From assembly GCA_030017685.1 (NCBI GenBank), contig JASEHH010000006.1, forward strand, positions 3,082-67,081: DNA of 64,000 nt. Direction: 5' to 3'. The position numbers and the translations under genes are program-made. The notes beneath the pieces were generated by a model that worked only from the letters and a program-made list of their open reading frames with translations, had not been told where the DNA came from and ran no database searches. Source of the stretch: Thermodesulfobacteriota bacterium (GTDB lineage: Bacteria; Desulfobacterota; BSN033; UBA1163). Below are positions 37,223 through 55,834 of the stretch, in pieces; positions within the stretch are counted from its first letter, which is position 1; each line of letters starts with the position of its first letter.

Positions 37223-37290
37223 CCCGGAGGACCTGAAACCCTTCCGAATATAGATGGGGGATCTGGGTTGCCATCTCCTTTGTTTTCTCT

Positions 37291-43200: not shown

Positions 43201-44103
43201 TTCAAAGACCCGGCCTGCATAAGACTTAACATAGTGAGGTAGATTGACCACTGCACAACCGGTTTGCAGACCCTCCAGCCACAGCGCAAATACTTCCCGG
43301 CGAATTCGGCGCAGGGAGTCGAGGTACGCAGAGAGGAAGCTCTCGTTTACTGGCAACCCATCATTCAAGTGGGCGCTGGCAGCCCGGTTCAACTCGTCAA
43401 ACTGCTTTGGATAATCCGTGGCGTCTTCCGGCGGCGCCAGGTAAACAAATAGCCCTCTCAAATCAGGGCGCTCCAGCCAAACAGCACGTTCTCCGTAGAG
43501 CGCACCACAGAAGATGGCATGGTTATTCGGTGGCCGTCTATTCTGCTCGCAGATAAAACGCTCTGGCACTGCTCCAGGCCACCACATCGCTTGCGCCAGT
43601 CCCCGCGAATTGATATCTTCTGCATCTTTCTCGTCACCCGCTAACACATGTGTCAAATACTTAAACCGTTTTTCAACCAGAGATTTTCTCCCCCTCAAAT
43701 TTGGAGCGAGAACATACTCCTCAGGAGTGTACTCTATAGATTCTGGTAAAAAGCCAACGCGTACCGGTGCCAGCGTGGCAAGCCACTCCAAAAATGTCTC
43801 ATCGAGGCTGCTATGAACGATTTCAACCCAAACCTGATCAAAATGTTTCCCGGCGCAAATCTTCTGCGCATGCCTTAGCCAGGATCCAGGTGAAGATGGA
43901 AATAGCTCATGGATTGCTGGAATGGTAAGATACTCTAAACCATTGGCTTGGAATCCTTCCTCAATGCCAAGTTGTGCGATGTAGGACCAACTCCGAGCCC
44001 TTGCCCAAGTCTGGAATTCCAGTTCTATGAGCAATACTTTTACCTTGGCTCGACCGGTTACATAAACATCGGCATGCGACTTACGATATTCCATTGAATC
44101 CAT
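37291..44103 (-). CDS. 2270-aa multidomain glycosyltransferase: GT-B(CgeB-like)-SAM MTase-radical SAM/SPASM-GT2-TPR-GT2-GT2-TPR
   Basis: YAGRVFEAMAAG; ILDVGCGRG; C707xxxC711xxC714; CVWP...YPCGG...CKVC; three VSxIxxxxN...xDxxSxD GT2 starts; two TPR blocks; one open frame. Confidence 0.88.
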   Translation of the reverse strand: MDSMEYRKSHADVYVTGRAKVKVLLIELEFQTWARARSWSYIAQLGIEEGFQANGLEYLTIPAIHELFPSSPGSWLRHAQKICAGKHFDQVWVEIVHSSLDETFLEWLATLAPVRVGFLPESIEYTPEEYVLAPNLRGRKSLVEKRFKYLTHVLAGDEKDAEDINSRGLAQAMWWPGAVPERFICEQNRRPPNNHAIFCGALYGERAVWLERPDLRGLFVYLAPPEDATDYPKQFDELNRAASAHLNDGLPVNESFLSAYLDSLRRIRREVFALWLEGLQTGCAVVNLPHYVKSYAGRVFEAMAAGRPVISWEVPNRPRNKALFDDGREILLFNKKDPSQLASHIQRLQNEPDFSRVIAENASRKLRRFHTIENRIRQVLDWIETGKEPDYGELEKDPNTVSRFGHSDDMEKSSEGSSLSYKEKRAFSSDKARQDAYYVNLFTKGSYFSGPDPNEDEKARWSKISSILVKIIQSGKVDCTQKLRILDVGCGRGWLTHLASSYGIAGGVDPAAEVIAAARRYFPNLNFCVGYAKTILTKPDFHPYDVVLASEVIEHVPRAEQAQFVRELSFLTKPGGYVILTTPRAEVFDTWMKLTNHSRQPVDDWLSEEELHRLFLSQGFSSIAQDRIYIEIPSGSYVLNPSRNQRQSGNLLALYQVWGIKMERRPCLREKKECRNTATERPKNPTSTNGWTSRFPVQVHFLMIDKCNAKCIFCGGDYFRSESKRLITLEKFQRMAANLKLERFQKIVLAGAGDPLLNPHLIPIIQYTHDRYSGVGISITTNGIALTEEISEAFLRCKISDLNISINAASRNVYKRVMQVDCFDKVCQNARRFVALRREKGTGPVLQFSSAINRLNIEDLPALVELGREIGIDALNIFYTRFYPERIRHLNVDREEDRLNNQDSLFYHKELSDQMVEKAKSLAEKYGIHFFHEPLFKEYAGPRPCVWPETQLMVGFDGEIYPCGGAEVHFKEKVEGGVYPFGNALTHPIEEFWNGEMYRALRISSQAGKDCPIAECKVCANRMNPGDEKAHIMHWDTPSESTFKKEGERIDKIRKEEPEGEFPLVSVIVPTYNRPDMLVETLRSILNQTYSNYEIIIVNDAGVDVENVVTFLNQAGRMTYVRHGRNLGLAAARNTGIKMAKGKYIAYLDDDDLYYPDHLETLVQFLEGSDYKVAYTDAHRAHQKKVNGRYAVVKQDVPYSFDFDDDRILLENFVPVLCFMHEKSCLDEVGCFDEDLTTQEDWDLWIRLSRKFKFAHIRKVTCEFSWREDGTTMTGGKKIDFLRNMKRIYEKYREYSKGKPNLHQVQETFFKNFDEMVKREYDRIQQLIKESLIEEAISALEKLLILFPAHSLAHDDLGVLYFHRGDRKLALEHFIQSIKADPKNRNAMKNMADLRMELGQMKEALQLYQMVLADQPMDVEALLGVGNYCLRAGRLGDASYFFKQVLEIEPENMAAKEYLDALANPEEEGVSPELRVNGESQPLTALPPKEEKEKIENPKVSIIIPVFNNLCLNRQCLKSIYQNTQDSNYEIIVVDNASTDGTTDFLRHEAAKGLLRVIRNDANLGFAKACNQGAEAARSSYLMFLNNDTEPQKGWLEPLLEILENDPSVAAAGSKLLFPDGKIQHAGVVIIDDRKLPDPLVARHVYYEKPGDYNDANQRRTFQALTAACLLVRKSAFRQAGGFEEEFWNGYEDVDLCFKFQERSWKLVYQPESVVIHHESKSGPERHRRTDENTRLLHRRWLGKIDHDFILKKDGSFTHSNFGFIRPYSLPNRGDEGVLQESESINIPLVSIVILVHNQLEYTKKCIESLFKYTREPFELILVDNGSTDGTLQYLDGIRKGRDDIDGWRLKADKDGKVEGWDGDLKGKGKIKKKKKKKERKLEENKLFCKTIKVIPNERNLGFARGNNQGMAEAKGDYLLLMNNDVVVTPGWLERMIAVAEREPKIGIVGPMSNYVSGPQWIKEVTYDLQSLAGLNQFAQDYAQTHRGQAKPFWRVVGFCMLIKSAVVEKIGGLDSRYGLGNFEDDDFSLRARLAGFESWIAEDCFVHHFGSRTFAGSGIDYSESLKRNWEIFKKKWGIPEDLKCGDPYDLTEILRQGFIPGRHYSPLKPEEYSVSLGEELFQSGDVEGARDLFNRLLQENIEDVDAINNLGVIAYQEGKFDESMSYFNRVLTLNPDHLDAFENLGHCLVIKKSYKEAIRCFEKVLEFKPGDLSLLNSLGNCLIQTGDFLRAEEIYTRSYRLDGTQTKVREILAGLERVKSIETERRVAL

Positions 44104-45756: not shown

Positions 45757-46566
45757 TTAAGCCTGTCTTGCTCCTCTTTTGCACTGTCTTGGGGAAACCA
45801 AAGAACGTTGTACCTCTGGCTTCCCTGAATTGCTTCGTTGCGTCCTCTTCCGAAGCGGCACTTCTTTGATTCTATCTCTCCCCTCTCCTCCCCGAATGGT
45901 GAGCAGAGAGATTCCGTTAGGGGCAGAAAAGGTTTCTGCAAGACGGTTCAAAGTGCTCATGGATACAACATCGCCCGGTCCCACAATCGGCTCTCCTGTG
46001 CGACTTACCAGACCTCCTTCTAAAACAACGATGATCTCTTCCGGGTCCCTATGCCGAAGTTCTGAAATCTCCTCAACCCTTTCAACGGAGAGAGTATGCC
46101 CGTGGAGGTTGTAGCGTTGATCCAGACCCTTCTTCGCCGGACTCAATTGAATACAATTCTCTGTCAGCGGAACGATCGCCTCCGTCCCTTCATAAGGTTT
46201 TTCTTTGCGGCCATAGGCATCCTCCAGCCTCACCAGATTGTCTTTCTCACGGGGGGTCTCAACCTCGATCACGGCAATCCCTTCAGGCGAAACCGCCTCT
46301 GTCGAATGGAAGAGCCCCTCCCGAATCATCAATTTGCTCGGGGATTTTAGATGAACGGAGTCATTTAAAAAGGAGAGAACAGCCTCTCCGGATAGAAGAA
46401 TAAGGCCTGTCTTCTTACGGGGATGGCAATGGAGGGAGGTCTTTGCATGTTGCTTGATATAAAGATACCATATTCCAACCATGTGGTTCTGAAACATCAA
46501 GTATTCAAAACCCCAAGGTTTTTTAACGATTATCTGTTCATAACTGGTCATATCGGACTCCATCAT
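45757..46566 (-). CDS. Cupin-domain protein (sugar isomerase-like)
   Basis: VKKPWGFEY...TSLHCHP...LFHSTEA...EVETP; start may be 46551. Confidence 0.75.
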   Translation of the reverse strand: MMESDMTSYEQIIVKKPWGFEYLMFQNHMVGIWYLYIKQHAKTSLHCHPRKKTGLILLSGEAVLSFLNDSVHLKSPSKLMIREGLFHSTEAVSPEGIAVIEVETPREKDNLVRLEDAYGRKEKPYEGTEAIVPLTENCIQLSPAKKGLDQRYNLHGHTLSVERVEEISELRHRDPEEIIVVLEGGLVSRTGEPIVGPGDVVSMSTLNRLAETFSAPNGISLLTIRGGEGRDRIKEVPLRKRTQRSNSGKPEVQRSLVSPRQCKRGARQA

Positions 46567-46583
46567 TCTTCCCAGATCGGCCG

Positions 46584-48323
46584 TTATACCAGCCGGTACA
46601 AATCCAGGGCTTCAAATCTTTTTCTCCAGAAAGTGGAACCCTCCAGATAGGTTTCTGCAAAATGTTTCAGTCGTTGAGATTCGTTGTAATTACCCAGTTT
46701 TTTCTCGACAATGCCCAGGTATAAGTTAGCAAGAGGATTTTCATGGACGCGATTGCATACGTCTTTTAGCATTTTTTGCAGCATCCTCAATTTTACAGGG
46801 CGCCCCTCAAGTAAAATCTTTTCATAATTCACCTTGTAATCCATGATAAACCAAATATCTTTCAATTCTTCCCTTGTTGGAATTTTGTTAAGGCTTCCTT
46901 CAAAGGGGTTGTAAAATTCTTTTGCCTCAGTCTTTTCCTGTTTTTCACGAAGCCGTTGCCCTCCGGTTGATCCGACGAAAAATCGACTGGTAATATCGTT
47001 CGCTTCTACGATCCCTTCTTCTTCCAGGACTTTTCGGACACCTGTCGCAGGGAAAGGTGTTAGAATCTGAATCGGATACCAGTCAAGGGATAGTTCGCGA
47101 GCAAGGTGAATCGTGTCGAGTATTTGACCAAGGGTTTCGTTCAAAAAGCCCGCCATCAAGAAACCTTTTGTAAATATGTCGGGGTATTCTTGCAATATTT
47201 CTGCGGCCCTTTTGAAATGCTTTATTCCGCTGGGCTTCCGGATTGAATGAAGAATTTCTGGATTGCCTGATTCAATCCCTATGGTCAAGCCAATGCAACC
47301 AGACTCATAAGCACCAAGAGCGATTTCAGGGGTAATGCCGCTTGCCACTACACCGTTTGACGCATCCCAGGTAATATTCAGCTGCCGCCTGGTTATTTCT
47401 TTAAAAAGGTTTATAGCCCTTTTCTCATTGAACAAGAGATCGTCATCCAGCCACATAAAATGCCTAATATTATATTTTTTATACAGGGATTCCATCTCGT
47501 CCACAACCGTTGTGATATCACGTTGCCTGACTCCGTTTCCTCCATAAAAGGCCTTGACGCTGCAAAATGTGCAATTGCCTCTACAGCCTCTGTTTGAAAG
47601 AACAGTTGACGCTTTTACCTCATCGGATAGTAAGTAATGGTATGCTCCTATCTTTCCGAGATGATGATAGTTGCCGATCGGTAAATCGCCAAATTCCGGT
47701 GCGGAAGCAATATCGTCTTCCATCTTGCGATTATCAATAATAATGTAGGTGTTCTTATATTTTGTGGCAATTTGACTGAATTTATTTTTCAGAGTTTTGC
47801 CATTAATAAAATCAATTAACGTGATAAAGCTGGAATCACCTTCATATAAAGATACAAAATCTATACTCTCACAATCATTTAAGACACACTCAGGGGCAGC
47901 AGATGGATGCACCCCGCCAGCGATGACAGGTAATTTTCTGTTATATTCCTTAATAAAATCGGCGACGTCTTTCATAGATTGATGGCTCATGCTGTACAGG
48001 CAAGTGATGGCGCAGAGGTCGGGTTTAAACTGCAAGATTTTTTGTTTTAGCTGATCCTTCCAAACACTGTATCGAAACTCTTTCTGATTCAAAACCCCAT
48101 AATTCAAATCTACAATGTCAGCCAGGTAGCCGTTCTCCTTTAATTTCCTGTATATTATTCCCAAACCGTAGGGGGGAAAAACCGGATACCTTTTTTGTCG
48201 AGCCACTTCCCAATCAAATTCTTCTTCAGGGATAACTGGCGGATTTATCAATAAAATACGCCTACAATCCCTTGGAAAAACTTCCTTTATTTTATTAAAG
48301 ATAGGACTTAAGTTATGGTCCAT
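46584..48323 (-). CDS. B12-binding radical SAM enzyme (second, AT-rich)
   Basis: ILLINPP...IAGGVHPS...YEGD; RGCRGNCTFC; WLDDDL; GIESGN. Confidence 0.9.
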   Translation of the reverse strand: MDHNLSPIFNKIKEVFPRDCRRILLINPPVIPEEEFDWEVARQKRYPVFPPYGLGIIYRKLKENGYLADIVDLNYGVLNQKEFRYSVWKDQLKQKILQFKPDLCAITCLYSMSHQSMKDVADFIKEYNRKLPVIAGGVHPSAAPECVLNDCESIDFVSLYEGDSSFITLIDFINGKTLKNKFSQIATKYKNTYIIIDNRKMEDDIASAPEFGDLPIGNYHHLGKIGAYHYLLSDEVKASTVLSNRGCRGNCTFCSVKAFYGGNGVRQRDITTVVDEMESLYKKYNIRHFMWLDDDLLFNEKRAINLFKEITRRQLNITWDASNGVVASGITPEIALGAYESGCIGLTIGIESGNPEILHSIRKPSGIKHFKRAAEILQEYPDIFTKGFLMAGFLNETLGQILDTIHLARELSLDWYPIQILTPFPATGVRKVLEEEGIVEANDITSRFFVGSTGGQRLREKQEKTEAKEFYNPFEGSLNKIPTREELKDIWFIMDYKVNYEKILLEGRPVKLRMLQKMLKDVCNRVHENPLANLYLGIVEKKLGNYNESQRLKHFAETYLEGSTFWRKRFEALDLYRLV

Positions 48324-48343: not shown

Positions 48344-49243
48344 TTATCGCTGAAGCATTTGTTTGACAGTTATATAAATTCTGTCTGCATTGGGTGCCGC
48401 GTTCTGCAACGGAGGGCATAGGCACTTGGTTCTATCATATAACCCTAGCGCCTTCACAGAGTGACCTGTGGCTTGGTTCAATGCATAGGCAATGGACTGG
48501 GAAGCCCCTGCGATTTCATAGCCTGAATCAATCACAAGGCCCAGTTTGCTCTGGTTCAGCGGATCGATCAGACGTCTTGTGGAAACAATTGGTTTAAGCC
48601 ACAGAAGATGGATAATGTTGCATTTTATTCCATCGGCTTTGAGCATCTGAGTGGCCCGGGTGACCTCAAATCTTGTAGATGAAATGGCATAAAGGGTGAT
48701 GTCAGCGTCATCCACGAAGACATCGTTCATTTCCTCGGTATTCGGAAAGCTGATGCGGTGCTCACTGACAATCATGGGGTCATCGTTTTCCATGAAGACC
48801 TTCCAGACCTCTTCATACTCCTTTGGAGTCATGGGAGAGCAGACGCGAAAGCCGGGGAAGTGCATGAAAATGCTGTGAAGAATCCCTGAATGGACAGGCC
48901 CTATACCCTCCGCACCGATCGCCCTGACAAAGATGGGCGCGCCTTTCCCGTGGAGTTCCTTTGTCTTGGCCGCATAAAAGATGAGGGGGCTTCCATTCAG
49001 GATGAGAAAATCCTGAAACCGGACGACGAAGATAGGCCTCCGGCCGACCAGGGACGCACCGACGGCAATGCCAGCGCCTGCGACATCGCTCATCGGAAGC
49101 TCCACGATTCCAGGACAGTCCGGAACCGTATTATTCACCCACCCGGCAGCCGTGATCGATTGGCCCAGAAGTAATCCGTTATTCTCGAGCAGGTGGCTTC
49201 TCGTTATCTCCCTAATCGTTTCCGCAACTGTTTTGGATCCCAT
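48344..49243 (-). CDS. ThDP-dependent dehydrogenase E1 beta/transketolase C-terminal subunit
   Basis: LLLGQSI...ELPMSDVAGAGIAVGASLVGRRPI...GPVHS; start set at MGSKTV (40-bp overlap with the alpha gene). Confidence 0.85.
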   Translation of the reverse strand: MGSKTVAETIREITRSHLLENNGLLLGQSITAAGWVNNTVPDCPGIVELPMSDVAGAGIAVGASLVGRRPIFVVRFQDFLILNGSPLIFYAAKTKELHGKGAPIFVRAIGAEGIGPVHSGILHSIFMHFPGFRVCSPMTPKEYEEVWKVFMENDDPMIVSEHRISFPNTEEMNDVFVDDADITLYAISSTRFEVTRATQMLKADGIKCNIIHLLWLKPIVSTRRLIDPLNQSKLGLVIDSGYEIAGASQSIAYALNQATGHSVKALGLYDRTKCLCPPLQNAAPNADRIYITVKQMLQR

Positions 49244-50163
49244 AATTTCTCTATCGACTCTCGAACCTCTTCTTCGATGTTTGATATCTTCTCCAGAAGG
49301 CCCATTTTCCTGAGCTCTTCTTTTACCAGGGTAAACCTGTCCCACTCTGTAGGCCCGTCTTGTCCTACTCCGACATGCCAGTGGGCTCTGCAGGTATCAA
49401 TGTTCAAAAAGGCGGGAAGACCCTTGATCAATTCCTGTGTCCGTTGGATGAGGGTCCATGGGTCATCGCTGGTCTCAAAGGCCTGCATGCCAAGGGCCCC
49501 TGCCACCTTGGTCATGCTCCATGACCGCCGTTTGTCCACCGTGGTTAGGATCGAGAGATTATTATCTTCGCATATAAATAAGACCGGCAATCTATGGGTC
49601 ACTGCAAACCCCATGGCCGCAAAGACATAATCTTCCTCGGCCGCTCCGTCTCCAAAGAGACATACTGTCGGTTTGTTGCTTCCCAGGGCCGCGCCCACAC
49701 CAAGGGAAACGTTCTCCCCGATGAGTCCGTGATGGCCAAACATGGTAATATTGTTTTCATGGCATTGAATGCAATTTGATCCTGCTCTGCCTCCGCTTGT
49801 CCCACCTGGCAATCCCAGAAGCTCATCTCGCAGTTTCTCCGGGGCACCTCCAAAGGCCAGATAGATCCCGTGACATCGATGCTGGGCAAAGATCATGTAT
49901 TCGGGGATGACCAGCGATAAGGCAGCCCCGATGGCTTCCTGCCCGAGAGAGAGATAGACCGGATAGGTGATCAGACCGTCCCCTGCGGCGCGAACGATTC
50001 CAAGTTCAAAATATCGGATCAGACACATCCGGCGAAAGAGGGTGAGGGAGGTGTTGGGATGGAAAGACTGGATAAGATCCGAAATCACACCCAAGGAGGG
50101 TGATCTCCCTAAGGCCTCCTCGTCTGGAACGGCTTCCCTATTTTTTTCCAAAAGATTTGCCAT
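49204..50163 (-). CDS. ThDP-dependent dehydrogenase E1 alpha subunit
   Basis: YLSLGQEAI, AQHRCHG, ThDP motif GDGAAEE...EDNN. Confidence 0.9.
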   Translation of the reverse strand: MANLLEKNREAVPDEEALGRSPSLGVISDLIQSFHPNTSLTLFRRMCLIRYFELGIVRAAGDGLITYPVYLSLGQEAIGAALSLVIPEYMIFAQHRCHGIYLAFGGAPEKLRDELLGLPGGTSGGRAGSNCIQCHENNITMFGHHGLIGENVSLGVGAALGSNKPTVCLFGDGAAEEDYVFAAMGFAVTHRLPVLFICEDNNLSILTTVDKRRSWSMTKVAGALGMQAFETSDDPWTLIQRTQELIKGLPAFLNIDTCRAHWHVGVGQDGPTEWDRFTLVKEELRKMGLLEKISNIEEEVRESIEKLWDPKQLRKRLGR

Positions 50164-50165
50164 GC

Positions 50166-50825
50166 TCAGCCCTCATAAAATAAGGCCATTTGAATCGCCA
50201 ATGAATCGTTAAAGTCCTTGATCCTCATCACCTCTTTGGGAAAGACCGCTTCCCGGTGCTCCCGGCCAATAAAGTCGATGCCCGCTCTCATGGCCCCTTC
50301 GTAATCCGTAATGGAATCGCCGATCATCACCATCTCATCCGATCTCACCTCTGACTCTGAAAGGATGGATCCGATAATCTCCCCTTTCTTTTTGGGTGCG
50401 CCGTAGACGCCTTTGAAATAGTGGCTGAGATGTCGGCCTGAGATGATCCGGGAGAGTTCGTCCTCGGGTGTTCCCGAGGCAATGTAGAAATGGGTGACTC
50501 GATAGTACCGATTGAGAAAACGATCCGCACCCGGCACCCAGGGGGCCTGTTCCACCGCCTTCTCAACGAGCTCTGAAAAACGCTCCCAGAGGCTCACTTC
50601 CTCGTCATGAGAGGGATCCCTTCCCAGAAACTCCCTATGACAATATCGAATCTTTTCGAATCTTGAGATGCCTCCGTACCGTTGATCGTATTGGACAACC
50701 TTCTCCACCACCTCAGGCCCATACTCTTTATAGAGTTCGGCGTAGGCCTTTGTCTTGATATCGGCTGATTCCACCAGGACCCCGTCGAAGTCGAAAACGA
50801 TCACACGGTATTTCAACAGCCTCAT
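50166..50825 (-). CDS. HAD-family phosphatase
   Basis: FDFDGVLVES motif I; MIGDSITD motif IV. Confidence 0.88.
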   Translation of the reverse strand: MRLLKYRVIVFDFDGVLVESADIKTKAYAELYKEYGPEVVEKVVQYDQRYGGISRFEKIRYCHREFLGRDPSHDEEVSLWERFSELVEKAVEQAPWVPGADRFLNRYYRVTHFYIASGTPEDELSRIISGRHLSHYFKGVYGAPKKKGEIIGSILSESEVRSDEMVMIGDSITDYEGAMRAGIDFIGREHREAVFPKEVMRIKDFNDSLAIQMALFYEG

Positions 50826-51346
50826 TCTCTTTCCTTTGCCATATAGTCGATGACCGCCTTCATAAAGTCACCATTATTGTTATAGTGGGGTGAGGTGATG
50901 AAATTTCCATCGATGACCACCGGGACTTTATGCTGATAGTCGGCGCCGGAATTTTTAAGGTCAACCTCCAGGCTCCAAAAGGCAGTCATCTTACGGCCTC
51001 GGGTAATCCCTGCTGTGATGAGAATCCACGGGCCATGACAGATGGCCGCAATCAATTTCTTCCGATCGTTCATCTTTTTCACAAATTCCAGAACCTCTGG
51101 TAGAAGCCGAAGTCGATCTGGAGCCTCAAACCCCCCTGGCAATAGCACAAGGTCAAAGGCATCGGCATCGAGCTCATCTGTGCTGATCGTTGGCTTGGCT
51201 GGGACACCGTATTTACCATAAACAACGGCTTTATCTTTGGTGGCCACATCGACTGAAAATCCAGCTTCAATCAGCCTGTAATACGGATAAATATATTCCT
51301 CATCCTGAAAGCCAGGACCTGTGATGATGACCGCTCTTTTCTTCAT
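50822..51346 (-). CDS. DJ-1/PfpI family protein
   Basis: GFQDEE, LLPGG, AAICHGPW nucleophile elbow. Confidence 0.9.
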   Translation of the reverse strand: MKKRAVIITGPGFQDEEYIYPYYRLIEAGFSVDVATKDKAVVYGKYGVPAKPTISTDELDADAFDLVLLPGGFEAPDRLRLLPEVLEFVKKMNDRKKLIAAICHGPWILITAGITRGRKMTAFWSLEVDLKNSGADYQHKVPVVIDGNFITSPHYNNNGDFMKAVIDYMAKERE

Positions 51347-51380: not shown

Positions 51381-52655
51381 CTAACGAGTCTCCAGAAACC
51401 TTCCCAATACATCCAGAACATACTCCATCTCTTCCAGTCCCAGGTCTTGGTGGACACCAATGTGTATGCCGTGTTTTCCAATATATTCCGCATTCGGGAA
51501 CTGTCCGGGTTGATAGCCAAGATAGGCAAACCCCGCACATTGGGTTGGCATGGAGGCGAAGAGGGTACGGGTCTCAACGCCATTCTCCTCAAGATAGTGG
51601 GTGAGTTCAGCACGGGTGAAAGATGCCCCTTCCTGAAAAATGATCGGAATGGCATGAGGACCAATCCGCTCATGAGGCTCCTCATGGATTGTAGTTAAAT
51701 AGGGGCTGAAGCGGTTGAATCGGTCAAGGACATAAAGGAGGTTATGACGTCGTTTCTCAACGATATCGAGATAATTTTCGATATTTCCCAGCCCGATGGC
51801 CGCTTCAATCTCGTTCATCTTAGAGGAATAACCGACCCGCTCGAATACAAACCGGATGTCCTCACCCCCGTTGCCATGAAAACGCTTCTGGCAGTACGCG
51901 GATGCCGTATTCAGTGTGCACCGCTTGCACTTACAGGCCCGGCCGTGGGAGCGGAGGGAGCGCAGGATCTCGGCGAACTCTTCCCGATTCGTCGTCACAA
52001 TGCCGCCTTCTCCCGTGGTGATGATGTGGGCTACGTAGAGACTGAAGGCCGCAAGATCCGAGAGCGTGCCAACCGGCTTTCCCTTATACATGGCTCCATG
52101 GGCCTCGGCCGCATCCTCAATGACGTAAAGTCCATGCCTTCTGGCAATCGCATTGATGACATCCATGTCGGCTGGCTTTCCCATGAGATGGACCGGCATG
52201 ATCGCTCGCGTCTTCTCTGTGATGGCTCCCTCAATCTGGCTGATATCGATGTTGAGAGTCTTCCTGTCGATATCTACAAATACCGGCTTGAAACCCGCAT
52301 GGACCACCGCATTGCCCGTGGCGACGAAGGAGAGGGCTGGAAGGATCACTTCATCGCCTCGCTTCGCTCCAAAGTCATGGAGCACGGCAAGTGCCAGAAT
52401 ATCCGCATCCGTGCCACTGCTTACGGCCACGGCTTCCTTCACCCCAAGGAGGTCTGCAAATCTTTCCTCGAACTGTCGCACGTACTTGCCGCTTGAGATA
52501 CGAGCCATCTCAAGGATGTCTCCAATAAGCCTCCTGGAGAGTTCCGGGATTTGGATCGTCCCGAAGGTAACCCTTCTCTTTTCACGGAAAAACTTCTTCC
52601 TCACAGGAGGTCTCATCGAAAGTACTGTTCGATCTCTTGCCTCATCCATCTCCAT
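51381..52655 (-). CDS. DegT/DnrJ-fold PLP enzyme with His at the catalytic Lys position (ColD/E1-type sugar C3 dehydratase candidate)
   Basis: SSGTDA, PVHLMG, IEDAAEAHG, FSLYVAH210IITTGEGG; Cys cluster GRACKCKRC...YC. Confidence 0.82.
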   Translation of the reverse strand: MEMDEARDRTVLSMRPPVRKKFFREKRRVTFGTIQIPELSRRLIGDILEMARISSGKYVRQFEERFADLLGVKEAVAVSSGTDADILALAVLHDFGAKRGDEVILPALSFVATGNAVVHAGFKPVFVDIDRKTLNIDISQIEGAITEKTRAIMPVHLMGKPADMDVINAIARRHGLYVIEDAAEAHGAMYKGKPVGTLSDLAAFSLYVAHIITTGEGGIVTTNREEFAEILRSLRSHGRACKCKRCTLNTASAYCQKRFHGNGGEDIRFVFERVGYSSKMNEIEAAIGLGNIENYLDIVEKRRHNLLYVLDRFNRFSPYLTTIHEEPHERIGPHAIPIIFQEGASFTRAELTHYLEENGVETRTLFASMPTQCAGFAYLGYQPGQFPNAEYIGKHGIHIGVHQDLGLEEMEYVLDVLGRFLETR

Positions 52656-53580
52656 TTTCTTTCTCCAAGAACCATCGAAAAGTTTCTTTTAATGCGGACT
52701 TGAAGTCATGGAAAGGCCGCCAGCCCATGGCCCAGAGTTTGCTGGAATCGAGAAGTTTCACGGGCATGCCATCTGCCTTATTGGCATCAAATCGCAACTC
52801 CCCTTTGTAACCGACGACTTCTTTGATCAAGACGGCAAGTTCCTTGATGGAGAGCGCCATCCCTGTTCCGAGATTAATGGGTCGATCATCGTCATATTCG
52901 TTCATCACGAAAATACAGGCATTCGCCAGGTCGCCAGCGAAGATAAATTCCCGCTGTGCGGCGCCCGTCCCCCAGATCTCTATATACTCTGCATGAGAGA
53001 GTTTTGCCTCATGCATCCTTCGGATGAGTCCAGCCACCACATGGGAGTTCTCTGGGCTGAAATCATCCCCTGGACCAAAGGCATTGGCCGGAATAGCTGA
53101 AATGAAATTCACCCCATACTGCTGACGATAGGCCTGACACAATTTCATGCCAGCGATCTTGGCTAGAGCATAGGCCTCATTGGTCGGTTCGAGGAGCCCG
53201 GTGAGCAAGGCGTCTTCTTTCATGGGTTGCGTGCAGAACTTTGGATAGCTACAGGAACTTGCCAGAAAAAGAAGTTTCTTCGCCCCGTGGCAGTAGGCAG
53301 AGCGAATGACATGACATTCCACCAGAAGATTGTCGAGCATGAGTTGTGCAGGATATTTCTGGTTGGCCATGATGCCACCTGATCTCCCGGCGGCCAAGAA
53401 GACGTATTCGGGCTTCTTACGAGCGAAGAAGGCGTCTACCTGAGTCCAATTGATCAACTCAGGTTCTTCTCTTGGTCTGTCGACAATGTGAGTGTACCCT
53501 TGGCGGTCCAATGCGCGCAGGATGGCTCCTCCGATCATGGTCTCGCCACCCGCCACATAAATTTTTTCATGCTTTTCCAA
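52642..53580 (-). CDS. fcl: GDP-L-fucose synthase/ColC-like epimerase-reductase
   Basis: AAGRSGGIMAN...LASSCSYPK...EPTNEAYALAK...WGTGAAQREF. Confidence 0.9.
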   Translation of the reverse strand: MEKHEKIYVAGGETMIGGAILRALDRQGYTHIVDRPREEPELINWTQVDAFFARKKPEYVFLAAGRSGGIMANQKYPAQLMLDNLLVECHVIRSAYCHGAKKLLFLASSCSYPKFCTQPMKEDALLTGLLEPTNEAYALAKIAGMKLCQAYRQQYGVNFISAIPANAFGPGDDFSPENSHVVAGLIRRMHEAKLSHAEYIEIWGTGAAQREFIFAGDLANACIFVMNEYDDDRPINLGTGMALSIKELAVLIKEVVGYKGELRFDANKADGMPVKLLDSSKLWAMGWRPFHDFKSALKETFRWFLEKENGDG

Positions 53581-53589
53581 ATCCCTCTC

Positions 53590-54654
53590 CTAAGATGGAT
53601 TAGGGGTAAGTTCTTGGAAGGACCGGATCGGCCGGCAAGCCCGATCCCTTTCCTCCGCCGAGTAATCCTCCTCCGAATCGAAAAAGATGATCTGACTTCC
53701 GGAGAATTCAATTTTGAACGGGACATGGATCAATTTGTTCAGTCTCTCTCTCACTTCTCCCTGCCTGGAAGGAGGGACGAAAAGCAAAATGAATCCGCCA
53801 CCTCCGGCTCCTGTTAATTTTCCGCCGATGGCCCCTGCTGAGATGGCTTCCTCGTAGATCTCATCCACATGAGAGTTGGAAACCTTGGAACTCAAGCTCC
53901 GTTTAGCCTGCCATGCCTCATGGAGGAGTTCGCCAAAGCCGGATATATCTTCACCGTTATTCAGGATCGAAATGCTTTCCTCAATTAAATCTTTCATAAT
54001 CCGAAGCTGCCTTTTTCTGCCTTCCATATCATTGACATAACTCTCGGCAATATTGGATGCCGTCCGTTTGATCCCTGTGTAGAAGAGCACCAGATGGGAA
54101 TTCAGTTCTTTGATCCGCTCCGGCGAAAGGGTAATAGGTCTGACAGAAAATGTGCCATTTGGAAGAAAGGTGATATGGTTGAAGCCACCGAAAGCCGCCG
54201 ACACCTGATCCTGGGACCCCACGGTCTCCTTCAGAACCTCCTGCTCAATATAGATGCTTTCTGTGGCTAATTGCTGCTTGCTTGGCATATAGCCTTTGAG
54301 GGCGTACAGGGCATGAAGGAGTCCCACGGTAAAAGAAGAACTGGTCCCCATCCCGCTCCGTGCTGGAAGATCCCCATCATGATGGATCTCCACGCCACGA
54401 TCGATATTCAAATGGCGTAAGATCTCCCGGACAGCGGGGTGGGCGATTTCGTCAATGGTCTGGCAGCTTTCGATCTTCGAGTAAACCAATCGGATCTTGT
54501 GTTCGAAAAAAGGCGGGAGATAGCGGCATGTCAGATAACAGTATTTGTCGATGGCAGTGGCGAGCACTGCCCCCCCATGTTTCCGGTACCATGCTGGATA
54601 GTCTGTTCCGCCACCGAAGAAAGAAATCCGAAAAGGAGTTCTGCTAATAATCAT
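53590..54654 (-). CDS. hddA: D-glycero-alpha-D-manno-heptose-7-phosphate kinase (GHMP kinase)
   Basis: RTPFRISFFGGGTDYP, DLPARSGMGTSS, GSQDQ, GGKLTGAGGGGF. Confidence 0.9.
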   Translation of the reverse strand: MIISRTPFRISFFGGGTDYPAWYRKHGGAVLATAIDKYCYLTCRYLPPFFEHKIRLVYSKIESCQTIDEIAHPAVREILRHLNIDRGVEIHHDGDLPARSGMGTSSSFTVGLLHALYALKGYMPSKQQLATESIYIEQEVLKETVGSQDQVSAAFGGFNHITFLPNGTFSVRPITLSPERIKELNSHLVLFYTGIKRTASNIAESYVNDMEGRKRQLRIMKDLIEESISILNNGEDISGFGELLHEAWQAKRSLSSKVSNSHVDEIYEEAISAGAIGGKLTGAGGGGFILLFVPPSRQGEVRERLNKLIHVPFKIEFSGSQIIFFDSEEDYSAEERDRACRPIRSFQELTPNPS

Positions 54655-55834
54655 GGATATTCACCTCTTTCTCTTGACCAAACAGGTCACGCTCGACCAA
54701 GGCACATAAGATGTGTTCGATCGCCAGATGGGCCTCTTGAATGTATTGGGTATCGGTGCTCGGAACTGAAATGGTCACATCCGCCCTCCCTTCCCGGTCG
54801 CCCTCCTTGCCTTTCAGAACGATGGTATGCATCTCTCCTGCTTGTGCGACTTTGACCGCACGGACCACATTAGCGGAGTTGCCACTCGTACTGATGCCGA
54901 TCAGGACATCTCCTCCCCTTCCAAGGGCCTGGATCTGACGTTCGAAAATGCCTTCGAACCCACAATCATTGGCGAAGGCTGTCAGAAAGGAGGTGTCCGT
55001 GGTCAAGGCAATGGCTGGCAGCCCGGGTCGATCAAAGTTCTTCGTCAGCCGACTGACAAATTCCGCAGCCATGTGCTGGCAATCGGCTGCACTTCCCCCA
55101 TTCCCGCACAACAGCAACTTTCCACCAGACCGGAACGTTTCCGAAATCAGGTCAGCCGCAGCGATAATCGAATCTACACAGCTCTCAACCATCTGCCGCT
55201 TCACCTCACCACTCTCAAAGAGGTGGTTCCTGACCCTATTGCGAAGCCGATCCACGCTGGGCTGCATTTTTTCTTTTGTCCCACCTGAGGCAAGAAGTTG
55301 CTGGATGAGGTTGGCCCCGGCTAATAAATCATCCACAACATAATCGGGTGGGAGCAGGGTACAAGAAGCAGAAGACTGGTCTCCATAGCCAGTACGAACC
55401 AATAGCGTCGTGGCCCCAACTCTTTTCCCAAGCTCAATGTCACATGCCTTATCGCCAATCACGAAACAGGCTTTTGGATCAAAGTCAAGTTCCTTCGCCG
55501 CCAACTCAAGGAGTCCGGGTCTGGGTTTACGGCAGGAACAATCCTCCTCGGGTCTATGGGGACAAACATAGATTCCATCCAAGTGAACATCTTCCGCCTT
55601 CAGTAGTTCACGGAGACGCTGATGAATGAGTTCCAGACGCATTGGGTCAAAGTATCCTCTTCCGATGCCGGACTGATTGGTGATCACAACGAGACCGAGG
55701 TCCATCTGACTCATTTGGTGCATGCCTTGAACGACTCCAGGGATCAATTCGACCCGATCAGGGTCCGAAAGATAATGACGCTCAATGTTTATCGTCCCGT
55801 CACGATCCAAAACTACGAAACGTCGCTGGGTCAT
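54644..55834 (-). CDS. gmhB/gmhA: Fused heptose-bisphosphate phosphatase (GmhB) and phosphoheptose isomerase (GmhA)
   Basis: LDRDGTIN...CPH...CSCRKPRPG; then CGNGGSAADCQH, ISTSGNS, IQEAH. Confidence 0.92.
   Translation of the reverse strand: MTQRRFVVLDRDGTINIERHYLSDPDRVELIPGVVQGMHQMSQMDLGLVVITNQSGIGRGYFDPMRLELIHQRLRELLKAEDVHLDGIYVCPHRPEEDCSCRKPRPGLLELAAKELDFDPKACFVIGDKACDIELGKRVGATTLLVRTGYGDQSSASCTLLPPDYVVDDLLAGANLIQQLLASGGTKEKMQPSVDRLRNRVRNHLFESGEVKRQMVESCVDSIIAAADLISETFRSGGKLLLCGNGGSAADCQHMAAEFVSRLTKNFDRPGLPAIALTTDTSFLTAFANDCGFEGIFERQIQALGRGGDVLIGISTSGNSANVVRAVKVAQAGEMHTIVLKGKEGDREGRADVTISVPSTDTQYIQEAHLAIEHILCALVERDLFGQEKEVNIHDY

What the first reader, a model, noticed from the sequence alone, without database searches (positions are those of the whole stretch)
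48344..50163. Stand-alone ThDP E1 alpha/beta pair without E2 or E3
No lipoyl E2 or E3 gene is nearby, and the two ORFs overlap by 40 bp inside a sugar operon. This fits a carboligase that transfers a 2-carbon unit to a 4-keto nucleotide sugar, by analogy to AviB1/B2 and YerE.
Basis: partly seen in the sequence, partly recalled or inferred. Interest (0 to 1): 0.62.

Follow-up and report, generated by a model that had tools for sequence, protein, structure and literature searches.

The report
Partner-free thiamine enzyme in flagellar-sugar operon
Two overlapping genes encode a thiamine-dependent enzyme that resembles the first part of pyruvate dehydrogenase but belongs to a large, unstudied, partner-free family in surface-sugar gene clusters of bacteria, archaea and large phages, and it most likely adds a small carbon side chain to an activated seven-carbon sugar that decorates the flagellum.

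Summary
Window 49204-50163(-) encodes an E1-alpha-like protein of 319 aa. Window 48344-49243(-) encodes an E1-beta-like protein of 299 aa. The two genes overlap by 40 bp inside a 14-gene GDP-heptose operon flanked by flagellar genes.

The pair is not a housekeeping E1:
- It scores far below the NCBIfam PDH cut-offs.
- On the alpha-subunit tree the family forms a fully supported clade on a long stem, apart from E2/E3-linked E1s.
- No E2 or E3 lies in the window or in 80 related loci.
- 15 of 24 carrier genomes have no E2 at all.
- Complete phage genomes of about 175 kb carry the pair.
- Natural alpha-beta fusions exist.

The ThDP motif and both active-site histidines are kept. The cofactor-activating Glu of E1-beta is usually Asp.

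Constant neighbours are extended SDRs, a His-type 3-dehydratase and B12 radical SAM enzymes. Two alternative "supply" modules occur: DJ-1/HAD/sugar-acid dehydratase, or aminotransferase/isopropylmalate-synthase-like.

The best reading is a lipoyl-independent carboligase that branches a keto sugar nucleotide. This is the job of the actinomycete alphaKADH2 enzymes (KbDH, AlmDI/DII, AviB1/B2), here in a cell-surface glycan. Reaction, donor and acceptor are inferred, not shown. I class it as a new variant of a known kind.

The parts
49204..50163 (-). E1-alpha-like ThDP-binding subunit (319 aa). It carries GDGAAEEDY...CEDNN, the ThDP/Mg motif, and R259-x-H-W-H263, which aligns with human 'RYHGH263'.
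   Evidence: Pfam E1_dh scores 70.7 bits. TIGR03182 scores 111 bits against a cut-off of 394. The model has pLDDT 90.6 and superposes on human PDH E1-alpha at TM 0.77 with 25% identity. Invariant residues are listed.
48344..49243 (-). E1-beta-like subunit (299 aa, start ATG 49243). Asp53 stands at the position of the cofactor-activating Glu, and His118 is invariant. It overlaps alpha by 40 bp.
   Evidence: Pfam Transket_pyr scores 50.7 bits and Transketolase_C 32.6 bits. PRK09212 scores 77.6 bits against a cut-off of 321. The model has pLDDT 94.5 and TM about 0.86.
50166..50825 (-). HAD-family phosphatase (beta-PGM/phosphoglycolate-phosphatase-like), 2 nt upstream of alpha. It is a possible donor-supply enzyme.
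   Evidence: HAD_2 scores 57.6 bits. A HAD family is present in 25 of 81 loci.
50822..51346 (-). DJ-1/PfpI protein (Cys-His 'ICHG' elbow), overlapping the HAD start by 4 nt.
   Evidence: DJ-1_PfpI scores 159.9 bits. The family is in 33 of 81 genome loci and 50 of 80 phage loci.
51381..52655 (-). RfbH/ColD-like PLP/PMP sugar 3-dehydratase. It reads 'SLYVAHIITTGEGG', with His where aminotransferases have Lys, and has a Cys-rich loop.
   Evidence: DegT scores 338 bits and RfbH 276 bits. The family is in 45 of 81 loci, and in 33 of 47 long loci.
52642..53580 (-). GDP-L-fucose-synthase-like SDR (epimerase/reductase). It points to GDP as the nucleotide and is a possible reductase of the ring or the branch carbonyl.
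   Evidence: NF047922 scores 409 bits against a cut-off of 500. The family is in 55 loci, plus 14 Fcl::cupin fusions.
53590..54654 (-). GHMP kinase, HddA-like (heptose-7-P 1-kinase).
   Evidence: GHMP domains are found. HddA scores 152 bits against a cut-off of 600.
54644..55834 (-). GmhB (7-phosphatase) fused to GmhA (sedoheptulose-7-P isomerase).
   Evidence: GmhA scores 208 bits and GmhB 176.5 bits.
55831..56559 (-). Sugar-1-phosphate guanylyltransferase (HddC/ManC-like).
   Evidence: NTP_transferase scores 102.9 bits. HddC scores 138.6 bits and man1P guanylyltransferase 171 bits.
56556..57494 (-). Extended SDR ('SDR312'), the first enzyme of the operon. It has YGQTK but 'TTNSGYG' instead of the TDE/TSE of 4,6-dehydratases, so it is a candidate C4 oxidase that makes the keto acceptor.
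   Evidence: Epimerase scores 100.8 bits. No equivalog is reached. The motif is read. The family is in 34 of 81 loci and directly upstream of alpha in Brocadia.
46584..48323 (-). B12-binding radical SAM enzyme directly downstream of beta.
   Evidence: Pfam finds B12-binding plus Radical_SAM. This is the commonest downstream neighbour of the pair (18 of 68 pairs). The family is in 40 of 47 long loci.
45757..46566 (-). Double cupin (PMI-like). It is fused to the Fcl-like SDR in other genomes.
   Evidence: The Pfam hits are weak. A 575-aa Fcl::cupin fusion family occurs in 14 loci. A cupin is in 78 of 80 phage loci.
44118..45680 (-). Second B12-binding radical SAM enzyme.
35465..44103 (-). Glycosyltransferases that would use the product: a 2270-aa GT/methyltransferase/rSAM/TPR protein and a GT2-TPR protein. 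Flagellin (34043-34876) and FliD follow.

Best explanation
The two genes encode the subunits of one ThDP enzyme of E1 (alpha/beta) architecture. It works alone, without lipoyl-E2 or E3, as a carboligase in a nucleotide-sugar pathway.

Inferred sequence of steps:
1. GmhA/GmhB, the HddA-like kinase and the HddC-like transferase make GDP-D-glycero-D-manno-heptose.
2. The leading SDR oxidises the sugar to a 4-keto sugar, and the His-type RfbH/ColD-like enzyme removes the 3-OH. The result is a 3-deoxy-4-keto sugar.
3. The alpha/beta enzyme decarboxylates a 2-oxo acid on ThDP. In this operon the donor is probably pyruvate or a small hydroxylated 2-oxo acid, perhaps with help from the HAD and DJ-1 proteins.
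4. The resulting acyl-anion equivalent adds to the sugar's ketone, giving a tertiary alcohol that carries an acyl branch.
5. Fcl-like SDR and cupin proteins then reduce or epimerise the product.
6. The B12 radical SAM enzymes C-methylate it.
7. The TPR-glycosyltransferases put it on flagellin.

Shown here:
- the fold and the intact cofactor site;
- independence from E2;
- membership of a distinct family tied to sugar clusters.

Inferred:
- the carboligation itself;
- the donor, the acceptor and the order of steps.
For: Fold and cofactor site are intact.
- E1_dh plus Transket_pyr/Transketolase_C are found.
- Confident models match solved E1 subunits.
- GDG...NN, alpha His263 and beta His118 are invariant across the family.
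- These two histidines align with human alpha-His263 and beta-His128 (the alpha alignment is my own reading of the motif).

The two chains form one enzyme.
- The overlap of 13-40 bp is conserved; 40 bp is the commonest value.
- Natural alpha-beta fusions exist: P0122 (628 aa) and P0128 (619 aa).

It is not an E2-dependent E1.
- NCBIfam scores are 111 against 394 and 77.6 against 321.
- The genome has its own canonical E1-alpha/beta, E2 and E3 elsewhere.
- No E2 or E3 occurs in the window or in 80 loci.
- 15 of 24 carrier genomes lack any E2 domain. These are 7/7 DPANN, 2/2 CPR, 4/4 Elusimicrobia, an Acutalibacter isolate and a Methanosarcinales MAG.
- 84 viral contigs carry the pair. Two are complete phages of 173 and 186 kb with a terminase.
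- In the tree the family is one clade (SH-aLRT 100). It is sister to other sugar-cluster pairs (97) and apart from E2/E3-linked E1s.

The context matches sugar branching.
- In 47 loci of at least 18 kb, extended SDRs occur in 42, B12-rSAM in 40, SDR312 or GMD in 38, the RfbH-like dehydratase in 33, and GHMP kinase or NTP transferase in 34.
- Enzymes of families that act on 2-oxo acids (a UxaA/GarD-like dehydratase, an isopropylmalate-synthase-like protein, a class I/II aminotransferase) sit beside the pair in 24 of 47 loci.

There is precedent.
- E1-type 'alphaKADH2' enzymes branch keto sugars. KbDH-alpha/beta was shown in vitro with pyruvate and ketone acceptors, and aldgamycin by feeding and knock-out (PMC12247030).
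- pau11 is needed for paulomycin (PMC4425429).
- YerE-type systems use a 3,6-dideoxy-4-keto acceptor plus a donor-supplying aldolase (PMC9306805).
Against: - No biochemical datum exists for any member of this clade.
- The canonical cofactor-activating Glu of E1-beta is Asp in most members (59 of 66), so catalytic competence is presumed rather than shown.
- An Fcl-like 4-reductase in the same operon would compete for a C4 ketone, so the branch point may not be C4.
- GmhA/GmhB lie within 10 kb in only 9 of 80 loci, so heptose may not be the family's general substrate.
- The window lacks both the sugar-acid dehydratase and the isopropylmalate-synthase-like gene, so the donor here is a guess.
- The tree used a quick search. 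The family's stem is very long (2.2 changes per site), and the canonical sample came from relatives of one class.
- AviB/KbDH sequences were not included in the tree.
Confidence: 0.6

Rival explanations
1. The pair builds a precursor rather than branching a nucleotide sugar. It would act on free or phosphorylated small molecules. One option is DXS/transketolase-like joining of a 2-oxo-acid-derived unit to an aldose phosphate. Another is plain decarboxylation of a 2-keto-3-deoxy acid. The resulting unusual sugar would then be dephosphorylated (HAD), isomerised (PMI-like cupin), phosphorylated (GHMP kinase) and activated (NTP transferase).
For: - The recurrent block E1-alpha, E1-beta, DJ-1, Fcl::cupin, UxaA/GarD-like dehydratase, HAD contains enzymes that normally act on free sugar acids or phosphates.
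- GmhA/GmhB are near the pair in only 9 of 80 loci, while a GHMP kinase is present in 39-45.
- The kinase matches HddA only weakly (152 bits against a cut-off of 600).
- The beta model also resembles transketolase and DXS (TM 0.72-0.81).
Against: - In this window a complete GmhA/GmhB/kinase/transferase set already explains the activated heptose.
- The pair co-occurs most steadily with enzymes that act on nucleotide sugars. Extended SDRs occur in 42 of 47 long loci and the RfbH-like 3-dehydratase in 33 of 47.
- Its nearest relatives on the tree are other pairs inside nucleotide-sugar or polysaccharide clusters.
Confidence: 0.22
2. The pair is an alternative E1 that docks on the cell's housekeeping E2/E3 core and makes an acyl-CoA used to O- or N-acylate the flagellar glycan.
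For: - This genome does encode one E2 and an E3-like gene elsewhere.
- The beta subunit keeps the C-terminal domain that binds E2 in canonical E1s.
- Both histidines used in reductive acylation are kept.
Against: - 15 of 24 carrier genomes have no E2 domain, and complete phages carry the pair.
- No E2 or E3 occurs in 80 loci.
- No acyltransferase is a recurrent neighbour.
- The family is phylogenetically apart from E2-linked E1s.
- The conserved 'GE(D/E)' and 'TPxxE' motifs of E2-linked beta subunits are changed.
Confidence: 0.04
3. The pair is a catalytically dead or purely structural relic, because the cofactor-activating glutamate is lost.
For: Asp replaces the canonical Glu of E1-beta, and Gln replaces the Glu of the 'GE(D/E)' motif.
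Against: - Conservation is extreme. The best 120 of 1494 homologues are 62-89% identical across phyla.
- The ThDP/Mg motif and the active-site histidines are invariant.
- The position is always acidic. It is Asp in most members and Glu in some subclades, which fits a working cofactor-activating residue.
- Phages retain the genes.
Confidence: 0.03

Closest known systems
alphaKADH2-type sugar C-branching E1 alpha/beta enzymes of actinomycete antibiotic pathways: KbDH-alpha/beta (kibdelomycin), AlmDI/DII (aldgamycin), AviB1/AviB2 (avilamycin), Pau11/Pau12 (paulomycin)
   Same: - Two-subunit E1 architecture.
- No E2 or E3 partner.
- Encoded inside a sugar pathway next to enzymes that make a keto sugar and reduce the product.
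- The proposed chemistry is the same: ThDP-bound acyl anion from a 2-oxo acid added to a sugar ketone, giving a tertiary alcohol (PMC12247030; PMC4425429).
   Different: - The organisms differ: uncultured anaerobes, CPR bacteria, DPANN archaea and phages, not actinomycetes.
- The pathway type differs: a primary cell-surface or flagellin glycan, not an antibiotic. The review assigns surface glycans to YerE-like enzymes only.
- The substrate is GDP-heptose-derived rather than dTDP-deoxyhexose.
- The subunits are shorter (about 301 + 300 aa, against 325 + 345 aa for Pau11/12).
- Asp stands at the cofactor-activating position.
- B12 radical SAM enzymes are constant partners.
- The neighbouring 'supply' modules vary.
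- Sequence kinship with these proteins could not be tested.
YerE / ErwE / MMAR_2332 / MyGE (decarboxylase-superfamily ThDP carboligases of LPS branched sugars: yersiniose, erwiniose, caryophyllose, 'gastriose')
   Same: - The pathway logic is the same: a 3-deoxy-4-keto nucleotide sugar made by an E1/RfbH-type 3-dehydrase, then a ThDP carboligase, then a reductase.
- A neighbouring enzyme supplies a functionalised 2-oxo-acid donor (PMC9306805).
- Both serve cell-surface glycans.
   Different: - The fold is unrelated: a single-chain acetolactate-synthase-like protein against an E1 alpha/beta pair (Pfam).
- The substrates are CDP-hexose rather than GDP-heptose.
- The donor-supply enzymes are BphI/HpaI-type aldolases. 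Here the neighbours are UxaA/GarD-like dehydratase, HAD and DJ-1, or isopropylmalate-synthase-like protein plus aminotransferase.
E1 components of 2-oxoacid dehydrogenase complexes (human PDH E1 1NI4/3EXE, G. stearothermophilus 1W85, BCKDH 1DTW/1UM9; acetoin dehydrogenase AcoA/B)
   Same: - The fold of both subunits is the same, with TM 0.75-0.87.
- The ThDP/Mg motif is kept.
- Both active-site histidines are kept.
   Different: - Identity is only 18-25%.
- Scores are below every NCBIfam cut-off.
- There is no E2/E3 linkage.
- 'TPxxE' is changed to 'LPMxD' and 'GE(D/E)' to 'GQx' in beta.
- Alpha is about 60 residues shorter.
- The family forms a separate clade.
Split-gene transketolases proposed to add a hydroxyacetyl branch in miharamycin/amipurimycin
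   Same: - A two-chain ThDP enzyme in a sugar cluster is proposed to branch a keto sugar (PMC12247030).
- Some relatives' loci carry such a transketolase/DXS-like pair right next to this family's pair (L003/L013).
   Different: - It belongs to a different superfamily.
- The window's pair matches E1 far better than transketolase.
- The transketolase function is itself unproven.

Membership tests
E2-dependent 2-oxoacid dehydrogenase E1 (PDH / BCKDH / acetoin DH) | E1-alpha (E1_dh) and E1-beta (Transket_pyr + Transketolase_C) folds with a GDG...NN ThDP motif | tested here: met
   Pfam, models and Foldseek, and the motif.
E2-dependent 2-oxoacid dehydrogenase E1 (PDH / BCKDH / acetoin DH) | Scores above the curated family cut-offs (TIGR03181/03182, PRK09212) | tested here: not met
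   Scores are 111 against 394, 56 against 411, and 77.6 against 321 bits.
E2-dependent 2-oxoacid dehydrogenase E1 (PDH / BCKDH / acetoin DH) | Genomic and functional partnership with lipoyl-E2 and E3 | tested here: not met
   No E2 or E3 occurs in the window or in 80 loci. There is no E2 domain in 15 of 24 carrier genomes. Complete phages carry the pair.
E2-dependent 2-oxoacid dehydrogenase E1 (PDH / BCKDH / acetoin DH) | Beta-subunit 'GE(D/E)' and 'TP(I/L)xE' acidic motifs (cofactor-activating Glu) | tested here: not met
   The family has 'GQ(S/A/C)I' and 'ELPM(S/T)D'. Canonical relatives and the genome's own E1-beta have 'GED' and 'DTPxxE'.
E2-dependent 2-oxoacid dehydrogenase E1 (PDH / BCKDH / acetoin DH) | Groups phylogenetically with E2/E3-linked E1-alpha | tested here: not met
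   The family is a separate clade (SH-aLRT 100). The sugar-cluster pairs are split from canonical ones at 97. This was a quick search with a long stem branch.
alphaKADH2-type sugar C-branching E1 alpha/beta enzymes (KbDH, AlmDI/DII, AviB1/B2, Pau11/12) | E1 alpha/beta pair without E2/E3 encoded inside a sugar-biosynthesis cluster | tested here: met
alphaKADH2-type sugar C-branching E1 alpha/beta enzymes (KbDH, AlmDI/DII, AviB1/B2, Pau11/12) | Co-encoded enzymes that create a keto-sugar acceptor and reduce or modify the new branch | tested here: inconclusive
   SDRs occur in 42 of 47 long loci, the RfbH-like dehydratase in 33 of 47 and Fcl-like reductases in 37 of 47. Which of them makes the acceptor or reduces the branch is unknown.
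alphaKADH2-type sugar C-branching E1 alpha/beta enzymes (KbDH, AlmDI/DII, AviB1/B2, Pau11/12) | Sequence or phylogenetic grouping with the characterised members | not testable with these tools
   The AviB1 (AAK83190), Pau11/12 and KbDH sequences could not be retrieved. Only other uncharacterised sugar-cluster pairs (L013, L067, L091) could be placed, and they came out as sister groups.
alphaKADH2-type sugar C-branching E1 alpha/beta enzymes (KbDH, AlmDI/DII, AviB1/B2, Pau11/12) | 2-oxo-acid-dependent acyloin formation on a ketone acceptor in vitro | not testable with these tools
   This needs enzyme assays.
YerE-type carboligases (decarboxylase superfamily) | Single chain with TPP_enzyme_N/M/C domains | tested here: not met
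   Alpha matches E1_dh, with only a 24.5-bit local hit of TPP_enzyme_C over the shared ThDP motif. It can work like YerE but is not a member.

The most novel reading that the evidence does not exclude
The pair is the core of a mobile, modular 'acyl-branch' cassette shared by bacteria, DPANN archaea and large phages.
- Interchangeable supply modules sit beside it: HAD/DJ-1/sugar-acid dehydratase, or aminotransferase/isopropylmalate-synthase-like. They would feed different 2-oxo acids to an Asp-activated, E2-free E1 enzyme.
- The enzyme would weld these donors onto a GDP-keto-(deoxy)heptose.
- B12 radical SAM enzymes would then extend or methylate the new branch.
- The outcome would be a so far undescribed class of branched, higher-carbon heptoses. 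In this organism they would sit on flagellin, so motility-organelle glycosylation would depend on both vitamin B1 and B12.
Probability: 0.3. Interest if true: 0.8.

Novelty: new variant of a known kind. Interest (0 to 1): 0.6.

Why it matters
ThDP-dependent sugar branching by E1-type enzymes is documented only for actinomycete antibiotics. One enzyme has been studied in vitro and no structure exists (PMC12247030).

This clade would move that chemistry into the primary surface glycans of many uncultured lineages:
- flagellin in this genome;
- probably S-layer or LPS-type glycans in other carriers;
- the cassette is also carried by large phages.

It offers several things:
- a compact enzyme of about 300 + 300 aa that forms tertiary alcohols and has an unusual Asp at the cofactor-activating site;
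- possibly a range of donor specificities, hinted at by the neighbouring modules;
- a concrete prediction of undescribed branched heptoses.

The prediction can be tested in a few cultured carriers: Geomonas limicola, Paramagnetospirillum kuznetsovii, Magnetospirillum sp. UT-4 and Acutalibacter intestini.

Tried and rejected
- Apparent alpha-beta fusions in L012 and L044 (564-569 aa ORFs) turned out to be out-of-frame read-through of high-GC alpha genes. They were dropped. Real fusions were later seen in P0122 and P0128.
- The avilamycin AviB paper (PMC544256) is not held.
- Literature searches joining flagellin glycosylation, heptose, radical SAM and E1/thiamine found nothing relevant.
- The promoter/terminator scan of 43.5-58.5 kb gave fewer sites than shuffles. 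It shows no internal boundary and nothing more.
- I looked for a UxaA/GarD-like dehydratase in the window's own genome to explain the donor. None was found. The isopropylmalate-synthase-like hits elsewhere in the genome look like housekeeping genes.
- The 130-155-bit E1-alpha hits in relatives were considered as possible orthologues. They were rejected because they sit next to E2 and E3.
- I considered that the pair supplies the housekeeping E2, and that it is a dead enzyme. Both rank low (see rivals).
Full report
OBSERVATION. The window holds two minus-strand ORFs at the stated place. The upstream one (49204-50163, 319 aa) matches Pfam E1_dh at 70.7 bits. That match covers only profile positions 2-186 of 300. 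The downstream one matches Transket_pyr (50.7 bits) and Transketolase_C (32.6 bits). The longest downstream ORF starts at a GTG (49345). Fifty-one homologues begin at the residue encoded by ATG 49243 (A2; sequence).

All flanking ORFs were assigned. Reading with the operon, the order is:
- MerR-like regulator;
- extended SDR (56556-57494);
- HddC-like guanylyltransferase;
- GmhB-GmhA fusion;
- HddA-like GHMP kinase;
- GDP-fucose-synthase-like SDR (409 bits, cut-off 500);
- RfbH-like DegT protein;
- DJ-1/PfpI;
- HAD;
- E1-alpha and E1-beta;
- B12 radical SAM, double cupin, B12 radical SAM;
- a 2270-aa multi-glycosyltransferase and a GT2-TPR protein;
- flagellin and FliD.
FlgK and a FlgL-like gene lie on the other side. 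This is a flagellin-glycosylation island built on a GDP-heptose pathway.

No E2 or E3 homologue exists anywhere in the 64 kb. A consensus scan shows no internal promoter or terminator above chance.

THE FAMILY. A search of about 5.8 billion proteins gave 1494 hits. The best 120 are all 62-89% identical and about 301 aa long. They come from Elusimicrobia, Deltaproteobacteria, KSB1, CPR bacteria and many unnamed metagenome contigs.
- In one genome per species, 159 loci encode a relative. Eighty were fetched.
- They include Brocadia, Nitrospirae, Planctomycetota, Magnetospirillum, Geomonas limicola, Acutalibacter intestini, a Pelagibacteraceae genome, a Methanosarcinales MAG and DPANN archaea.
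- In the library clustered at 50% identity, 54 representatives match at E <= 1e-30 and 1426 at E <= 1e-10.
- The alpha/beta overlap is a family trait. It ranges from 13 to 40 bp, and 40 bp is the commonest value.
- Two representatives, P0122 (628 aa) and P0128 (619 aa), are genuine alpha-linker-beta fusions. The two chains therefore act as one enzyme.
- Among 40 relatives of the window's organism only one same-genus genome has an orthologue. The distribution is patchy, as expected for a variable glycan island.

NOT A HOUSEKEEPING E1. Five results bear on this.
1. Curated models reject it. TIGR03182 gives 111 bits against a cut-off of 394, and PRK09212 gives 77.6 against 321.
2. The same genome has a canonical E1-alpha (356 aa, 312.6 bits to E1_dh) followed by an E1-beta with 'GED' and 'DTPLAE'. 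It also has a lipoyl-E2 and an E3-like gene on other contigs.
3. None of the 80 related loci (10 kb either side) holds an E2 or E3.
4. Of 24 carrier genomes searched whole, 15 have no E2 catalytic domain. These are all 7 DPANN archaea, both CPR bacteria, all 4 Elusimicrobia, the 4.3-Mb Acutalibacter isolate and the Methanosarcinales MAG. MAG incompleteness weakens single cases but not the pattern.
5. A tree of 81 alpha subunits puts the 68 family members in one clade (SH-aLRT 100) on a stem of 2.2 changes per site. Their sisters are three other stand-alone pairs from sugar or polysaccharide clusters (L013, L067, L091). This whole group is split at 97 from E1s of relatives that sit next to E2 and E3.
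Three caveats apply: the tree search was quick, the stem is long, and the antibiotic-pathway enzymes are absent from the tree.

ACTIVE SITE. The ThDP/Mg motif is GDGAAEEDY-x20-CEDNN. It is invariant, and 'EED' is a family signature.
- Alpha R259-x-x-W262-H263 matches the human 'R-Y-H-G-H263' stretch. H263 is invariant. This alignment is my reading of the motif.
- Beta His118 aligns with human beta-His128 and is invariant.
- These are the two histidines studied for catalysis in human BCKDH (entry titles).
- One feature is unusual. The glutamate of E1-beta that activates the cofactor (human Glu59, 'TPISE') is Asp here ('LPMSD'). It is Asp in 59 of 66 family members and Glu in a few subclades.
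- The Glu of the 'GE(D/E)' motif is Gln. The other sugar-cluster pairs share that second change but keep 'TPLSE'.
- The position is always acidic and the rest of the site is frozen. I therefore take the enzyme as active, but this is an inference.
- Both AlphaFold models are confident (pLDDT 90.6 and 94.5). They match only E1 subunits at the top of the PDB ranking, with 18-25% identity.

NEIGHBOURS. ORFs of the 80 loci plus the window were clustered de novo. Counts in the 47 loci of at least 18 kb are:
- extended SDRs, 42;
- B12 radical SAM, 40;
- SDR312 or a GMD-like dehydratase, 38;
- Fcl-like SDR, 37;
- GHMP kinase or nucleotidyltransferase, 34;
- RfbH-like enzyme, 33;
- DJ-1, 23;
- cupin, 23;
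- UxaA/GarD-like sugar-acid dehydratase, 16;
- HAD, 15.

Further points from the neighbourhood analysis:
- The cupin is fused to the Fcl-like SDR in 14 loci.
- A frequent block is SDR, E1-alpha, E1-beta, (B12-rSAM), DJ-1, Fcl::cupin, sugar-acid dehydratase, HAD.
- An alternative block is class I/II aminotransferase, truncated isopropylmalate-synthase-like protein, E1-alpha, E1-beta. The synthase-like protein scores 498 bits against a cut-off of 532.
- In the 47 long loci the two blocks never coincide. One shorter locus, L037, has both.
- The block type is clustered on the alpha tree. It needs 4 changes, against 8.3 in shuffles, and 0 of 300 shuffles were as low.
- GmhA/GmhB are within 10 kb in only 9 of 80 loci. 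The heptose assignment is therefore firm for this window but not for the family.
- The RfbH-like protein reads 'SLYVAHIITTGEGG', with His where aminotransferases have Lys.
- The leading SDR has YGQTK but 'TTNSGYG' rather than TDE/TSE. It is probably an oxidase or epimerase, not a 4,6-dehydratase. This is my reading of the motif.

PHAGES. A scan of IMG/VR found 84 contigs with a relative (37-45% identity, nearly full length).
- All 80 fetched contigs have both subunits. A cupin is in 78, the RfbH-like gene in 69, DJ-1 in 50 and B12-rSAM in 48.
- Two records rated 100% complete are 173,246 bp (with terminal repeats) and 185,927 bp. Both encode a large terminase.
- The cassette is thus carried by real large phages. 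This supports its autonomy and mobility.

MECHANISM. The best-supported reading is a lipoyl-independent carboligase. The enzyme decarboxylates a 2-oxo acid on ThDP. It then adds the acyl-anion equivalent to the carbonyl of a nucleotide keto sugar, giving a tertiary alcohol with an acyl branch. SDRs then reduce the product and B12 radical SAM enzymes C-methylate it.
- In this operon the acceptor would be a GDP-4-keto-heptose, probably 3-deoxy, made by the leading SDR and the 3-dehydratase.
- The donor is unknown. Pyruvate or a small hydroxylated 2-oxo acid is the simplest guess, since this operon has neither the sugar-acid dehydratase nor the synthase-like gene.
- Shown: the fold, the intact cofactor site, E2 independence, one-enzyme behaviour of the two chains, and the tight tie to nucleotide-sugar genes.
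- Inferred: the reaction, the substrates and the order of steps.
- I put this reading at 0.6.
- The main rival (0.22) is that the pair builds an unusual free or phosphorylated precursor that is activated afterwards. An alternative E1 for the housekeeping E2 (0.04) and a dead enzyme (0.03) are unlikely.

COMPARISON WITH WHAT IS KNOWN. The closest known systems are the 'alphaKADH2' E1 alpha/beta enzymes of actinomycete antibiotic pathways.
- Aldgamycin was shown by feeding and knock-out.
- KbDH-alpha/beta of kibdelomycin was assayed in vitro, with pyruvate as the only donor and ketones including sugar mimics as acceptors.
- About 120 gene clusters are known and no structure exists (PMC12247030).
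- AviB1/B2 and Pau11/12 belong to this group. Inactivation of pau11 was used to confirm the role of the pau cluster in paulomycin production, and Pau11/12 are 325 and 345 aa (PMC4425429).
- The same review assigns cell-surface branched sugars to YerE-like enzymes and places alphaKADH2 enzymes mainly in specialised metabolites.
- The YerE/ErwE/MMAR_2332/MyGE systems (PMC9306805) share the pathway logic seen here: a 3-deoxy-4-keto acceptor, a carboligase, a reductase and a neighbour that supplies the donor. They have an unrelated fold.

The window's pair thus works like these systems. It fails every test for membership of E2-dependent E1s. It fits the operational definition of an alphaKADH2 sugar-branching pair. 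Kinship with the characterised members could not be tested.

NOVELTY AND VERDICT. This is a new variant of a known kind. It is a deep, very conserved, uncharacterised clade of E2-free E1 pairs. It is found in primary surface-glycan clusters (here flagellin), in archaea and in phages. It has Asp at the cofactor-activating site, constant B12 radical SAM partners and exchangeable neighbour modules. Earlier notes of this scan on other genomes reached the same reading. They were used as leads only and are not independent evidence. Interest is 0.6.

Noticed in passing
L095-L174 (IMG/VR contigs); e.g. L098 and L145: 84 predicted viral contigs carry the E1 alpha/beta pair. With it come a cupin (78 of 80), an RfbH-like dehydratase (69), DJ-1 (50) and B12-rSAM (48). 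Two CheckV-complete genomes (173 kb with terminal repeats, 186 kb) also encode a large terminase, so large phages carry this sugar cassette.
   Followed up: partly
P0122 (628 aa), P0128 (619 aa): These are natural alpha-linker-beta fusion proteins of divergent family members. Both again have Asp at the acidic beta position ('SMGD', 'SMDD'). They would suit single-chain structure prediction.
   Followed up: partly
window 56556-57494 (-): The first SDR of the operon has the YxxxK dyad but 'TTNSGYG' where 4,6-dehydratases have TDE/TSE. It is more likely a C4 oxidase or epimerase than a dehydratase. The operon has no GMD-type dehydratase, so the sugar may keep its 6-OH.
   Followed up: no
window 45757-46566 and 52642-53580; L008, L009, L013, L016, L042 and others: The separate Fcl-like SDR and PMI-like cupin of the window occur as one 570-586-aa fusion protein in 14 related loci. 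This implies that they act together.
   Followed up: partly
L026, L040, L052, L063, L070, L081 versus L009, L016, L023, L042: There are two alternative neighbour modules. One is class I/II aminotransferase plus truncated isopropylmalate-synthase-like protein, directly upstream of alpha. The other is DJ-1, UxaA/GarD-like dehydratase and HAD. They never coincide in the 47 long loci; one exception is the short locus L037. The module type is clustered on the alpha tree.
   Followed up: partly
L013:7969-9940, L067:4698-6706, L070:1-1713: A second ThDP pair, more transketolase/DXS-like, lies next to the family's pair in some Elusimicrobia, Nitrospiraceae and Planctomycetia loci. This suggests two ThDP-dependent C-C steps in one pathway.
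   Followed up: partly
L091:6913-8869 (same-genus genome G008): Another stand-alone E1 alpha/beta pair (327 + 329 aa, 'TPVSE' kept) sits in a polysaccharide cluster. Its neighbours are a DegT aminotransferase, a methyltransferase, a PglF-like dehydratase and an initiating sugar transferase. It is a different sugar-linked E1 lineage in a close relative.
   Followed up: partly
own genome C248:25183-27205, C80:367-1635, C149: The organism's canonical E1-alpha, E1-beta, E2 and E3 are split over three contig ends. A 'missing E2' next to the housekeeping E1 is therefore an assembly artefact.
   Followed up: yes
window 46001-48000: The B12 radical SAM gene directly after beta lies in the most AT-rich 2 kb of the window (GC 0.435, against about 0.50 on either side).
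   Followed up: no
genomes G001-G040 (relatives): Only 1 of 40 related genomes (same genus, G002) has an orthologue of the pair. The flagellar glycan island is strain- or species-variable.
   Followed up: partly
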